A stretch of 64,000 nt of DNA, taken from NCBI RefSeq assembly GCF_013167455.1, contig NZ_CP038328.1; one strand, 5' to 3'. Every line of letters starts with the position of its first letter. Positions within the stretch are counted from its first letter, which is position 1. This document shows positions 688 to 38,960 of the stretch, piece after piece. The notes beneath the pieces were generated by a model that was given only the letters and a program-made list of their open reading frames with translations, was not told the DNA's origin and did not search any database. The DNA is from Escherichia coli O157:H7 (lineage in GTDB: Bacteria; Pseudomonadota; Gammaproteobacteria; Enterobacterales; Enterobacteriaceae). The position numbers and the translations under genes were made by a program.

Positions 688-838
688 AACTTTGCCTCAG
701 GCATTAGAAATAGCGCGTTATTGTACACGGATTAATCGCACTACAAAACAGGATCACAAACATCCTCCGCAAACAAGTATTGCAGAGTCCCTTTGTGATC
801 GCTTTCACGGAGCATAAAAAGGGTTATCCAAAGGTCAT

Positions 839-887
839 TGCACCAATATGGTGCTTAATGTTTCCATTGAAGCACTATATTGGTGCA
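839..887 (+). promoter_or_regulatory. Two NtrC (NRI) enhancer sites upstream of glnA
   Basis: tgcaccaatatggtgct (839-855) and gcactatattggtgca (872-887) match the TGCACC-N5-GGTGCA NtrC dyad. Confidence 0.8.
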
Positions 888-5369: not shown

Positions 5370-5457
5370 GCCAGATGCTGCGTGAACGCCTTATCCGGCC
5401 TACAAAAGCAATATTTTCAACAGGTTTTGTAGGCCTGATAAGCGTAGCGCATCAGGC
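5370..5457. repeat. REP/BIME palindromic elements
   Basis: gccagatgctgcgtgaacgccttatccggcctac and gtaggcctgataagcgtagcgcatcaggc, classic REP consensus. Confidence 0.75.
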
Positions 5458-7593: not shown

Positions 7594-7660
7594 AATGGTT
7601 CGTCTTTTAGCCGTTTTATTCAGTATAGATTTGCGGCGGAATCTAACAGAAAGCAAGCAA

Positions 7661-7904
7661 AGAAAAAAGGCGACAGATTACTCTGTCGCCTTTTTTCCTG
7701 ACTCATAACCCTTAACGGGTCTTACAATCCTTGCAGGCCGCCAACACACCCTGTTTTTCCATTAGCCGGAACAATCCGTGTTGATTCCATTTCCGTTTAA
7801 TTACGTCTCCGGACGTTTGTCTTCCTGACAATCCTCTGTCTTCGCCTCCTGGCGCTCCTGACCCTCATCCTGAGTCATTGTTCCTGTTAGCGTCCTCGCT
7901 CTAT
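7661..7904 (-). ncRNA. csrC: CsrC small RNA (CsrA-sequestering)
   Basis: Minus-strand sequence atagagcgaggacgctaacaggaacaatgactcaggatgagggtcaggagcg... with many GGA motifs, ending in ggcgacag/ctgtcgcc hairpin plus T-run; lies between yihI and engB. Confidence 0.85.
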
Positions 7905-8174: not shown

Positions 8175-8807
8175 TTGACTAATTTGAATTATCAACAGAC
8201 GCATTTTGTGATGAGTGCGCCTGATATTCGCCACCTACCTTCCGATACCGGAATTGAAGTGGCTTTTGCAGGCCGTTCCAACGCAGGTAAATCCAGCGCG
8301 CTGAACACGCTGACTAACCAGAAAAGCCTGGCTCGTACCTCAAAAACCCCTGGACGCACCCAGCTTATCAACCTGTTTGAAGTGGCTGACGGCAAGCGTC
8401 TGGTTGACTTGCCTGGGTACGGTTATGCGGAAGTCCCGGAAGAGATGAAGCGCAAATGGCAGCGCGCGCTCGGCGAGTACCTCGAAAAACGTCAGAGCCT
8501 ACAAGGTCTGGTAGTGCTAATGGATATTCGCCATCCGCTGAAAGATTTGGATCAGCAGATGATTGAGTGGGCGGTAGACAGCAATATCGCCGTGCTGGTA
8601 CTGCTGACCAAAGCGGACAAACTGGCAAGCGGCGCACGTAAAGCGCAATTGAATATGGTGCGTGAAGCGGTGCTGGCGTTTAACGGTGATGTGCAGGTTG
8701 AAACGTTTTCTTCGCTGAAGAAACAAGGCGTGGACAAGCTGCGGCAGAAACTGGATACCTGGTTTAACGAGATGCAGCCTGTAGAAGAAACGCAGGACGG
8801 CGAATAA
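8175..8807 (+). CDS. engB: Ribosome biogenesis GTPase EngB/YihA
   Basis: 210-aa [25 protein letters not shown]...[13 protein letters not shown]1 motif; apparent TTG start. Confidence 0.92.
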
Positions 8808-8825
8808 TTTTCTTACCTTAATGCT

Positions 8826-8910
8826 TATGCCGGATGTGGCGTATCCGGCCCATAAATTCAATAGATTACAATTCTACCGTTGGCCTGATAAACATGGTGC
8901 ATCAGGCATT
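8826..8910. repeat. REP-like palindromic elements
   Basis: gccggatgtggcgtatccggcc and ggcctgataaacatggtgcatcaggca imperfect REP units. Confidence 0.5.
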
Positions 8911-8932
8911 ACGGATCTTTCCTTTCGCCCAA

Positions 8933-9041
8933 TAAAAAACGCCCCAGTCATTACTGACTGGGGCGGCTAAAATATTCAGCCAAATCCGATTACGTGAAGT
9001 AAAAGGTCTGAAAGATAGAACATCTTACCTCTGTACCCTAC
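8933..9041 (-). ncRNA. spf: Spot 42 small RNA
   Basis: Minus strand reads GTAGGGTACAGAGGTAAGATGTTCTATCTTTCAGACCTTTTACTTCACGTAATCGGATTTGGCTGAATATTTTAGCCGCCCCAGTCAGTAATGACTGGGGCGTTTTTTA. Confidence 0.9.
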
Positions 9042-9188
9042 GCGACTAACTTTACTCTTTTTTGTTCAGTTCAGAAAGCACTTTTTGTAATTTTTTTTCA
9101 GTTGTTGCATAGGAATTTCTAATAGCCATCACAAAACGTGACAGCTTATGTTGCTTACTTACGAAAAAAGGGCATGTTCAGGCGAATC

Positions 9189-11975
9189 TTAGTGCGCCTG
9201 ATCCCAGTTTTCGCCACTCCCCACTTCCACCAGCAACGGCACATCCAGACGGGTACAGTTTTCCATCAGTTGATGAATCTGCTTCGCAACGGCATCGACA
9301 TCATCTCTATGAACTTCAAATACCAGTTCATCGTGTACCTGCATGATCATACGTACACGCGGTTGCTCAGCCTGTAACCACGCATCAACGGCAATCATCG
9401 CCCGTTTGATAATGTCGGCGGCGGTTCCCTGCATTGGCGCGTTAATGGCTGCACGTTCAGCCGCTGCACGACGAGCACCATTGCTGGATTTGATATCCGG
9501 CAGATACAGACGGCGTCCGTCCAGCGTTTCAACGTAGCCCTGCTCTTTCGCCTGAGCACGGGTGCGTTCCATATACTCCAGCACGCCAGGGTAGCGTTCG
9601 AAGTAAAGGTCCATGTACTTCTGCGCTTCTTTACGTGGAATGTTCAATTGCCGCGCCAGACCGAAAGCACTCATGCCATAAATCAGACCAAAGTTGATCG
9701 CTTTCGCGCTACGGCGTTGCTCGCTGGTGACGGTTTCCAGTGGCAAACCAAACACTTCTGCCGCCGTTGCCCGGTGGATATCTTTTCCTTCCGCGAATGC
9801 GGTCAGCAAGCCTTTGTCACGCGAGAGATGCGCCATAATGCGCAGTTCAATCTGCGAGTAGTCCGCTGAGACAATCACATAATCCTCTGGCGCAATAAAC
9901 GCCTGGCGGATACGACGACCTTCTTCGTTACGCACCGGAATGTTTTGCAGGTTAGGATCGGTTGACGATAAACGTCCCGTTGCAGTTACAGCCTGGTGAT
10001 AAGAGGTATGCACACGCCCGGTTTTCGGGTTGATCATCAGCGGCAGCTTGTCGGTGTAAGTCGATTTCAGCTTCGCCAGACCACGATACTCCAGAATCAC
10101 TTTTGGCAACGGATAGTCCAGCGCCAGTTCTTCCAGTACCTCTTCCGACGTTGACGGCGCGCCACCCGGCGTTTTCTTCAGCGGTTTAATGCCCTGTTTT
10201 TCAAACAGAATGGTTTGTAACTGCTTGGTGGAAGAAAGGTTAAATTCCTCACCTGCAATTTCATGCGCTTTCTTTTCCAGCTCAGCCAGACGAAGGGTGA
10301 GCTCTTCAGAATGATTGTGCAGCACTTTCGGATCGATCTTCACACCGTTACGTTCAATGCGTGAAAGTACTGGCACCAGCGGCATTTCGATATTCTCGAA
10401 GACGTTCAACGGCCCTTTGTGTTTTTGCAGATCCGGCCACATTTTCAGATGCAACTGCAAGGTGACATCAGCATCTTCGGCGGCGTAACGTCCGGCCTCT
10501 TCGAGGGCAATCTGGTTAAAAGTCAGTTGATTTTTGCCTTTACCCGCAATCTCTTCAAAAGTGATGGTTTTGTGCTTCAACCAACGTTCCGCGAGGCTGT
10601 CCATATCGTGACGCCCGGCAACGCTATTGAGAATGTAGGACTCCAGCATGGTATCAAACGCAATCCCACGCAGCTCAATGCCGTAATTCGCCAGAATACC
10701 GCGATCGTATTTCAGGTTTTGCCCGACCTTCAGCGCCTTTTCATCTTCCAGCAGCGGTTTTAGCAACTCGAGTGCACGCTCGCGAGAGATTTGATCGGGC
10801 GCATCAAGATAATCATGAGCAACCGGAATATATGCCGCTACGCCTGGCTCGATAGCAAAAGAAAGCCCGACCAGGTTAGCTGAGATGTTATCAAGGCTGT
10901 CGGTTTCGGTATCAAATGCAAATACCGGCGCTTTTTCCAGCTTCGCAATCCACGCTTTCAGTGTTTCTTCATCAAGGATGGTGACGTAGTTGTCATAAGA
11001 AATCACCGTTGCCGTCACTTCTGGTGCTTCGTCTGCAACACTGGTTTCCTGTGGCTTCGCGGCTGGTTTTGCCCCTTTGGCCTGTAACCATTTGCCCGCT
11101 TCGACATCAGCAGTCCAGCGTTTGAACTCATACTTTTTGAACAGCCCCAACAACTCTTCCGCTGCCGGTTGCTGCACTTCCAGTTGTTCACAGGTCAGCT
11201 CCAGTTCAACGTCGGTTTTAATCGTCGCCAGCTGGTATGAGAGATAAGCAACTTCTTTGTTTTGCTCGAGCTTCGCTGCCATTGTTTTCGCGCCACGGAA
11301 GCTCAACCCAGCAATTTTTTCTGGCTCGGCATACAGCGTATCCAGCCCGCCAAGACCTTGCAGCAATGCCTGCGCGGTTTTTTCACCGACGCCCGGTACG
11401 CCAGGAATGTTATCAGAGGAGTCACCCATCAGCGCCAGGAAATCGATGATCAGTTCTGGCGGCACGCCGTACTTATTCACCACCTCTTCCGGTCCGAGGA
11501 TGGTATTCGTCATGGTGTTGATAAGCGTAATATTTGGCGTCACCAGCTGCGCCATATCTTTATCGCCAGTGCTGATCAGCACCGGACGCCCGGCTTTTTC
11601 GGCTTCGCGCGCCAGAGTACCGATAACGTCGTCCGCTTCTACGCCAGAAACCGCCAGCAGCGGCAGTCCCATCGCTTTAACCATCGCGTGCAAGGGTTCG
11701 ATTTGTGCTCGCAGATCGTCCGGCATTGGCGGGCGATGTGATTTGTAATGTTCAAACAGTTCATCACGAAAGGTTTTTCCCTTGGCGTCAAAGACCACCG
11801 CTGCATGCGTCGGTTTATATTGCATGATCAGACTGCGCAGCATGTTGAGGACACCATACATCGCACCGGTCGGCTCGCCTGCGCTGTTAGTCAGCGGGGG
11901 AAACGCGTGATATGCGCGATAAAGATAAGATGAACCATCTACAAGGATAAGTGGATTTTGGGGGATCTGAACCAT
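9189..11975 (-). CDS. polA: DNA polymerase I
   Basis: 928-aa [45 protein letters not shown]... Confidence 0.97.
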
Positions 11976-18134: not shown

Positions 18135-18254
18135 ATGCCTGGCAGTTCCCTACTCTCGCATGGGGAGACCCCACACTACCATCGGCGCTACGGCGTTTCA
18201 CTTCTGAGTTCGGCATGGGGTCAGGTGGGACCACCGCGCTAAGGCCGCCAGGCA
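18135..18254 (-). rRNA. rrfA: 5S ribosomal RNA
   Basis: 120-nt match to E. coli 5S (TGCCTGGCGGC...GGAACTGCCAGGCAT) on minus strand. Confidence 0.95.
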
Positions 18255-18346
18255 AATTCTGTTTTATCAGACCGCTTCTGCGTTCTGATTTAATCTGTAT
18301 CAGGCCGAAAATCTTCTCTCATCCGCCAAAACACCTTCGGCGTTGT

Positions 18347-21251
<2,905 letters not shown>

Positions 21252-21434
21252 TCACAACCCGAAGATGTTTCTTTCGATTCATCATCGTGTTGCGAAAATT
21301 TGAGAGACTCACGAACAACTCTCGTTGTTCAGTGTTTCAATTTTCAGCTTGATCCAGATTTTTAAAGAGCAAAACTTCGCAGTGAACCTTTGCAGGTACA
21401 CTCTGAAGTATTTTTTATTTAATCACTACAGAGA

Positions 21435-21510
21435 TGGTGGAGCTATGCGGGATCGAACCGCAGACCTCCTGCGTGCAAAGCAGGCGCTCTCCCAGCTGAG
21501 CTATAGCCCC
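21435..21510 (-). tRNA. alaT: tRNA-Ala (UGC)
   Basis: Reverse complement equals GGGGCTATAGCTCAGCTGGGAGAGCGCCTGCTTTGCACGCAGGAGGTCTGCGGTTCGATCCCGCATAGCTCCACCA. Confidence 0.97.
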
Positions 21511-21552
21511 ATAACATGTAGTTAAAACCTCTTCAAATTTGCCGTGCAAATT

Positions 21553-21629
<77 letters not shown>

Positions 21630-21697
21630 GTAGAGGTTTTACTGCTCATTTTCATCAGACAATCTGTGTGAGCACTGCAAAGTACAGTTCTTTAAGG

Positions 21698-23239
<1,542 letters not shown>

Positions 23240-36717: not shown

Positions 36718-38960
<2,243 letters not shown>

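What the first reader, a model, noticed from the sequence alone, without database searches (positions are those of the whole stretch)
8933..9041. Spot 42 sRNA (spf) immediately downstream of polA
Near-exact match to the 109-nt Spot 42 RNA on the minus strand, with its intrinsic terminator. It contains a short internal ATG-initiated frame, noteworthy only because dual-function behaviour has been discussed for this RNA.
Basis: established knowledge. Interest (0 to 1): 0.15.

Follow-up and report, generated by a model that had tools for sequence, protein, structure and literature searches.

The report
Spot 42 sRNA gene (spf/spfP)
This is the ordinary, textbook Spot 42 small regulatory RNA gene of E. 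coli, base-for-base identical to the reference strain, including its already characterised 15-amino-acid SpfP reading frame; nothing here is new.

Summary
Window 8933..9041 (minus strand) is the spf gene for Spot 42 RNA. Rfam RF00021 scores 122.8 bits against a gathering score of 80. The 109 nt are identical (not just "near-exact") to E. coli K-12 spf, and the 601-nt stretch tested around them (8700..9300) is 100% identical to E. coli O157:H7. The RNA folds into the expected three hairpins, the last being an intrinsic terminator. It sits 147 nt downstream of polA on the same strand, convergent with engB/yihA. That gene order is kept in 107 of 120 Enterobacterales loci. The published CRP site and a conserved -10 element lie upstream. 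The internal frame (9023..8976) encodes MFYLSDLLLHVIGFG. In 117 orthologues nt 1-59 are invariant, against 63% pairwise identity in the promoter. Hairpin 2 and the terminator show compensatory changes. Verdict: already known, real, low interest.

The parts
8933..9041 (-). spf gene: 109-nt Spot 42 RNA (+1 = G at 9041). K-12 annotates 111 nt, which would be 8931..9041.
   Evidence: Rfam RF00021 at 122.8 bits against a gathering score of 80. Identical to K-12 b3864 at 109 of 109 bases. Single copy in 5424 of 5426 E. coli genomes.
8976..9023 (-). spfP: 15-codon ORF plus a UGA stop, encoding MFYLSDLLLHVIGFG. The His10 codon CAC is at 8994..8996.
   Evidence: Translation. Same coordinates relative to spf as K-12 spfP b4837. 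Experimental basis in PMC8916003.
9028..9031 (-). Shine-Dalgarno GAGG (RNA nt 11-14), 4 nt before the AUG. It is sequestered in hairpin 1.
   Evidence: Sequence and coordinates. Pairing in the MFE and Rfam consensus structures. Described in PMC8916003.
8994..9041 (-). Hairpin 1 (RNA nt 1-48). It contains the SD, the AUG and most of the ORF.
   Evidence: MFE fold, identical to the Rfam consensus structure. Invariant in 61 distinct orthologue sequences, so there is no covariation information here.
8982..8993 (-). Single-stranded linker GUAAUCGGAUUU (RNA nt 49-60). It includes the GGA reported as the CsrA site.
   Evidence: Unpaired. Coordinates. CsrA/GGA statement from PMC12612679.
8965..8981 (-). 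Hairpin 2 (RNA nt 61-77). It holds codon 15 and the UGA stop.
   Evidence: The closing pair changes from G-C to A-U in 14 distinct sequences (compensatory).
8933..8965 (-). Intrinsic terminator: 11-bp G+C-rich stem (8965..8940), a 4-nt loop, then a U tail.
   Evidence: Terminator scan and inverted repeat I1. Six stem pairs show compensatory changes across orthologues.
9049..9054 (-). Probable sigma-70 -10 hexamer TAAAGT (-13..-8). The -35 region is poor (TTTCTG at -36..-31), with A-tracts upstream.
   Evidence: Positions T-13, A-12, A-10, G-9 and T-8 are kept in >=95% of 115 distinct upstream sequences. The simple consensus scan did not call a promoter. Identical to K-12.
9115..9136 (-). CRP binding site TTTTGTGATGGCTATTAGAAAT, centred at -84.5.
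   Evidence: The sequence is present verbatim and equals the E. coli spf CRP site quoted in PMC3295665 from Polayes et al. 1988. A site with <=3 mismatches in the ten core-consensus positions (TGTGA-N6-TCACA) sits at the same position in 65 of 115 distinct orthologue upstream regions.
9189..11975 (-). polA (DNA polymerase I, 928 aa), the upstream neighbour on the same strand (context).
   Evidence: ORF list, annotation in O157:H7 and K-12, synteny.
8175..8807 (+). engB/yihA (GTPase), the downstream convergent neighbour (context).
   Evidence: ORF list, annotation, synteny.

Best explanation
This is the chromosomal spf gene of E. coli, here in an O157:H7-type genome. It is transcribed from its own sigma-70 promoter (+1 at 9041) to an intrinsic terminator (3' end about 8933), giving the 109-nt Spot 42 RNA. 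When glucose is scarce, cAMP-CRP bound at the site centred at -84.5 represses transcription, so the RNA accumulates when glucose is present. The RNA then works in two ways, both established experimentally in K-12. First, as an Hfq-dependent base-pairing sRNA it uses three single-stranded regions to repress mRNAs for uptake and catabolism of non-preferred carbon sources (galK, srlA, gltA, sthA and others). [quoted passage not shown] Its SD and AUG are buried in hairpin 1, and SpfP levels rise at 42-45 C. Both arms reinforce a CRP/Spot 42 feed-forward loop of catabolite repression. What is shown here: identity, structure, terminator, ORF, promoter and CRP-site sequence, synteny and conservation. 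What is inferred by identity to K-12: expression, regulation, targets, and SpfP translation and function.
For: - **Rfam:** RF00021 scores 122.8 bits against a gathering score of 80, full length.
- **Identity:** the 601-nt stretch 8700..9300 is 100% identical to O157:H7 genomes. It is identical to K-12 from 132 nt upstream of +1 through 9 nt past position 109, covering the promoter, the CRP site, spf and spfP (with the K-12 annotation).
- **Structure:** a three-hairpin fold at -40.6 kcal/mol, z = -5.1, and a terminator. Compensatory changes occur in hairpin 2 (1 pair) and the terminator (6 pairs) across 61 distinct orthologue sequences.
- **Conservation:** nt 1-59 are invariant in 117 orthologues from many Enterobacterales genera, apart from one synonymous, pair-preserving C48U. 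The adjacent promoter, by contrast, shows only 63% mean pairwise identity.
- **Synteny:** polA > spf > < engB in 107 of 120 loci.
- **ORF:** translates to MFYLSDLLLHVIGFG with His10.
- **Literature:** PMC8916003, PMC3295665 and PMC12612679.
Against: Nothing in the sequence argues against it. Three caveats apply. The simple sigma-70 scan called no promoter because the -35 element is weak. The comparative data cannot separate protein-level from RNA-level selection on the ORF, because there is almost no variation. No expression data for this strain were available.
Confidence: 0.97

Rival explanations
1. Spot 42 here acts only as a non-coding base-pairing sRNA. On this view the 15-codon frame is an incidental by-product of RNA-level constraints and has no physiological role at native expression levels.
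For: The SD and AUG are paired inside hairpin 1. Earlier biochemical work concluded that Spot 42 binds ribosomes inefficiently and non-productively and 'is not an mRNA' (Rice et al. 1987, quoted). ORF conservation is uninformative because nt 1-59 are invariant at all three codon positions. The stop codon is lost or displaced in 3 of 117 orthologues, giving 18- and 24-aa frames. The G15S variant is a side effect of a compensatory change in hairpin 2.
Against: Aoyama et al. 2022 detected chromosomally SPA-tagged SpfP and co-purified SpfP with CRP. They found that a recoded construct expressing only the protein blocks growth on galactose unless a stop codon is introduced. A chromosomal spfSTOP mutant showed faster galK induction at 42 C. 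The sequence here is identical to the one they studied.
Confidence: 0.1
2. The RNA is produced mainly by read-through and processing of polA transcripts, as a 3'-UTR-type sRNA, rather than from its own promoter.
For: The simple scan finds no canonical terminator between the polA stop (9189) and spf +1 (9041), and it calls no consensus sigma-70 promoter either. Same-strand adjacency to polA is conserved.
Against: A conserved -10 hexamer sits at the right distance from the mapped +1. [quoted passage not shown] 5' RACE in Aliivibrio salmonicida maps the same 5' end. Spot 42 is described as a highly abundant RNA, which does not fit read-through from polA as its main source; that polA itself is weakly expressed is general knowledge, not checked here.
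Confidence: 0.03

Closest known systems
E. coli K-12 MG1655 spf (b3864), small regulatory RNA Spot 42; Rfam RF00021
   Same: All 109 nt are identical. The promoter, CRP site, terminator, flanking genes and orientation are the same.
   Different: Nothing differs within the gene. Outside it there is a 1-bp C insertion in the polA-spf spacer about 132 nt upstream of +1, plus 7 substitutions in the spf-engB spacer.
SpfP (spfP, b4837), the 15-aa CRP-binding small protein encoded within Spot 42 (Aoyama et al. 2022, PMC8916003)
   Same: The coding sequence, SD, start, stop and His10 are identical.
   Different: Nothing differs. Translation and function were not tested in this strain.
Other dual-function sRNAs of carbon metabolism: SgrS/SgrT, AzuCR, and Vibrio cholerae VcdRP
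   Same: Each is one transcript that acts both by base pairing and through a small protein in the same pathway. VcdRP is also repressed by cAMP-CRP (abstract of PMC8672173).
   Different: These are unrelated in sequence. In Spot 42 the ORF overlaps the base-pairing regions, and the protein targets the RNA's own transcriptional repressor, CRP.

Membership tests
Spot 42 RNA (Rfam RF00021 / spf) | The covariance-model score reaches the curated gathering threshold over the full model. | tested here: met
   122.8 bits against 80, model positions 1-115 of 115, minus strand 8933..9051.
Spot 42 RNA (Rfam RF00021 / spf) | Sequence identity to the type gene, E. coli K-12 spf. | tested here: met
   109 of 109 bases identical (with the K-12 annotation).
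Spot 42 RNA (Rfam RF00021 / spf) | A three-hairpin secondary structure ending in a Rho-independent terminator. | tested here: met
   The MFE structure equals the Rfam consensus, z = -5.1. Terminator scan. Seven pairs with compensatory changes in hairpin 2 and the terminator; hairpin 1 is invariant and so uninformative.
Spot 42 RNA (Rfam RF00021 / spf) | Conserved genomic context: downstream of polA on the same strand and convergent with engB/yihA. | tested here: met
   Window ORFs, annotations, 107 of 120 orthologous loci, and literature.
Spot 42 RNA (Rfam RF00021 / spf) | An own promoter with a cAMP-CRP operator, and transcription repressed by cAMP-CRP. | tested here: inconclusive
   The sequence elements are present: the CRP site is verbatim at 9115..9136 and the conserved -10 is at 9049..9054. 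Repression itself cannot be tested in silico.
Spot 42 RNA (Rfam RF00021 / spf) | Hfq-dependent base pairing with galK and other carbon-metabolism mRNAs. | not testable with these tools
   Inferred from identity to the K-12 RNA studied experimentally.
SpfP small protein (spfP) | A 15-codon ORF with an SD, an AUG and a UGA stop, encoding MFYLSDLLLHVIGFG including the critical His10. | tested here: met
   Translation, coordinates, identity to K-12 b4837. ATG is kept in 117 of 117 orthologues and the 15-aa length in 114 of 117.
SpfP small protein (spfP) | The protein is translated in vivo and binds CRP. | not testable with these tools
   Shown for K-12 in PMC8916003. Not tested for this strain.

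The most novel reading that the evidence does not exclude
The simple scan finds no canonical terminator between polA and spf. polA transcripts might therefore read through and end at the spf terminator, carrying a second, CRP-independent copy of the Spot 42/SpfP sequence in their 3' UTR. That could underlie the old, mechanistically unexplained report that Spot 42 levels influence DNA polymerase I activity (Polayes et al. 1988, quoted). This is speculation. It rests only on the absence of a terminator call and on the conserved same-strand adjacency.
Probability: 0.07. Interest if true: 0.3.

Novelty: already known. Interest (0 to 1): 0.05.

Why it matters
It matters only for annotation. Spot 42 is one of the oldest and best-characterised bacterial sRNAs, and SpfP was described in 2022. 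The practical point is that the O157:H7 RefSeq record examined (NZ_AP018488.1) annotates neither spf nor spfP at this position. Five of the six E. coli records sampled also list no feature under the match. A gene list taken from such records therefore lacks a functional dual-function regulator of catabolite repression. The comparative result is a tidy illustration of stacked constraints, but it does not open a new question. That result is 59 invariant nucleotides across Enterobacterales genera next to a promoter at 63% pairwise identity.

Tried and rejected
- **Promoter scan:** the consensus sigma-70 scan found no promoter around spf. I did not take this as absence. The -35 element is weak, and a conserved -10 at the correct distance was recovered from 115 distinct orthologue upstream sequences.
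- **Sub-threshold Rfam hits:** PyrR, VrrA, NsiR1, ncS54 and a plus-strand partial Spot_42 match overlap the region. All score far below their gathering scores and are driven by the generic terminator hairpin, so I rejected them.
- **Selection on SpfP:** I tried to detect protein-level selection from substitution patterns. This was uninformative, because the free ORF positions carry only one synonymous change, one structure-driven G15S, one stop loss and one insertion.
- **Genome-collection scan:** No Vibrionales or Aeromonadales sequences were obtained, so covariation in hairpin 1 could not be tested independently of Rfam.
- **Mechanical ORFs:** several ORFs of 25-49 aa on both strands of the intergenic region cross the REP palindromes, the terminator or the promoter region. 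There is no supporting evidence for any of them, and I treated them as chance.
- **Family scan of SpfP:** at 15 aa it is too short for the protein-family tool (minimum 20 residues), so none was run.

Full report
**Observation**

All of this is in the sequence.

A scan of the whole window against Rfam 15 gives a full-length hit to RF00021 (Spot_42) at 8933..9051, minus strand. It scores 122.8 bits against a gathering score of 80, with E = 3.6e-24. The alignment shows that the extra 10 nt at the 5' end arise because the Rfam model starts upstream of the mapped transcription start.

**Identity of the locus**

A 601-nt stretch around the feature (8700..9300) is 100% identical to many E. coli O157:H7 chromosomes, and a match is present in 5425 of 5426 complete E. 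coli genomes. The 109 nt alone occur once per genome in 5424 of 5426 genomes, all at >=99% identity.

K-12 MG1655 annotates this position as spf (b3864, 'small regulatory RNA Spot 42', 111 nt) and, inside it, spfP (b4837, 'dual-function small protein SpfP'). A base-by-base alignment of the polA-engB intergenic region shows no difference from K-12 anywhere from 132 nt upstream of +1 to 9 nt past position 109. The match is therefore exact. The only differences are a 1-bp insertion just after polA and seven substitutions in the spf-engB spacer.

**Anatomy**

- **Fold.** The RNA strand folds at -40.6 kcal/mol (z = -5.1; no shuffle out of 200 folds as well) into three hairpins: nt 1-48, 61-77 and 78-101, followed by a U tail. 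This structure is the same as the Rfam consensus structure.
- **Terminator.** The last hairpin and its T-run are the only terminator-like site in 8600..9400 (inverted repeat I1).
- **ORF.** The frame runs from 9023 to 8976 and translates to MFYLSDLLLHVIGFG*. A GAGG Shine-Dalgarno sequence lies 4 nt upstream of the AUG. Both the SD and the AUG are paired within hairpin 1.
- **CRP site.** The 22-bp site TTTTGTGATGGCTATTAGAAAT lies upstream at 9115..9136, centred at -84.5. It is the E. coli spf CRP site quoted in PMC3295665 from Polayes et al. 1988.
- **Promoter.** The consensus promoter scan called nothing. However, TAAAGT at -13..-8 has its key positions kept in >=95% of 115 distinct orthologue upstream sequences. 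The -35 region is weak and is preceded by A-tracts.
- **Neighbours.** polA is the 928-aa ORF at 9189..11975 on the same strand. engB/yihA is at 8175..8807 on the opposite strand and is convergent.

**Related sequences**

I scanned the species-representative genome collection with a 22-nt pattern from the ORF body. The pattern deliberately excluded the start codon, the stop codon and His10.

- **Synteny.** In 107 of 120 loci polA is upstream on the same strand and engB is downstream on the opposite strand. Most of the others are cut by locus ends.
- **Sequence conservation.** In the 117 usable orthologues, nt 1-59 of the RNA are invariant except for one C48U change. That change is synonymous (CAC to CAU, His10) and keeps the G1 pair as G-U. 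For comparison, the 60 nt immediately upstream have 63% mean pairwise identity, and the next 60 nt have 39%.
- **ORF conservation.** The ATG is present in 117 of 117 orthologues and the 15-aa length in 114 of 117. Of the 117, 98 are identical to SpfP and 16 carry G15S. Three have 18- or 24-aa frames after loss or displacement of the stop.
- **Covariation.** A consensus fold of 61 distinct sequences reproduces the three hairpins and finds 7 pairs with compensatory changes: one in hairpin 2 (G-C to A-U in 14 sequences) and six in the terminator. The G15S variant is the coding side effect of the hairpin 2 change. Hairpin 1 never varies, so it says nothing for or against its pairing in this set.

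**Mechanism**

By identity to the K-12 gene, the mechanism is the published one.

- **Regulation and base pairing.** cAMP-CRP represses spf, so Spot 42 accumulates in glucose. With Hfq, it base-pairs through three single-stranded regions with mRNAs for non-preferred carbon sources.
- **SpfP translation and function.** Aoyama et al. 2022 showed that the 15-codon frame is translated, using a chromosomal SPA tag, with more protein at 42-45 C. They also showed that SpfP co-purifies with CRP and that His10 is critical. [quoted passage not shown]
- **Balance of the two activities.** The relative weight of the RNA and protein activities shifts with temperature.
- **CsrA.** It is reported to bind the GGA in the linker and to protect the RNA from RNase E.

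None of these activities can be tested in silico here. They are inferred from sequence identity.

**Rivals**

1. *The ORF is incidental.* This is consistent with the older 'not an mRNA' result and with our uninformative comparative data. It is contradicted by the 2022 experiments on the identical sequence.
2. *Spot 42 derives from polA read-through.* This rests only on the absence of a called terminator or promoter. It is contradicted by the conserved -10, the CRP operator and 5' end mapping.

**Novelty and verdict**

This is a real feature, correctly identified, and already known in every respect, including the small protein. Interest is low.

The only practical remark concerns annotation. 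The RefSeq O157:H7 record examined annotates neither spf nor spfP, and five of the six records sampled list no feature under the match.

Noticed in passing
window 7651..7904 (-); L001 3923..4089: Rfam finds CsrC sRNA at 7651..7904 (277.9 bits). The O157:H7 RefSeq record annotates a 'hypothetical protein; frameshifted; internal stop' pseudo-CDS that maps to about window 7712..7878, entirely inside csrC. This is probably an annotation artefact.
   Followed up: partly
window 8829..8849 and 8883..8907: Two REP-like palindromes (GCCGGAT...ATCCGGC and GCCTGAT...ATCAGGC) fill the 125-nt spacer between the spf terminator and the engB stop. Similar palindromes occur at 5433, 31224 and 57941. They carry three of the seven substitutions relative to K-12 in this spacer.
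   Followed up: partly
window 9042..9188: The simple scan calls no canonical intrinsic terminator between the polA stop and spf +1. There is also a 1-bp C insertion relative to K-12 about 17 nt after the polA stop. Whether polA transcripts read through to the spf terminator was not examined.
   Followed up: no
NZ_AP018488.1 (L001) and other RefSeq E. coli records: Neither spf nor spfP is annotated in the O157:H7 record examined. Of six records sampled across the ranking, only one (NZ_AP041814.1) lists spfP under the match.
   Followed up: partly
window 18137..23239 (-), 21259..21367 (-): A complete rRNA operon (16S, two tRNAs in the spacer, 23S, 5S), with a StyR-44 hit just upstream of the 23S.
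   Followed up: no
window 38355..38606 (-) and 769..876 (-): Full-length Rfam hits to 'Erse small RNA' (316 bits; the hit ends in ...AAAUGA, so it may overlap the 3' end of a coding gene) and to 'ES222 sRNA' (133 bits). Neither was examined.
   Followed up: no
L048 and one identical locus; L076; about 16 loci including L003, L005, L019, L040, L059: SpfP variants occur among the orthologues. Yersinia artesiana (L048) and one further locus lose the UGA (TGA to TGT), giving a 24-aa frame. Photorhabdus tasmaniensis (L076) has a 2-nt insertion giving an 18-aa frame. The listed Providencia, Photorhabdus, Moellerella, Morganella and Proteus loci carry G15S, coupled to a compensatory change in hairpin 2.
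   Followed up: partly
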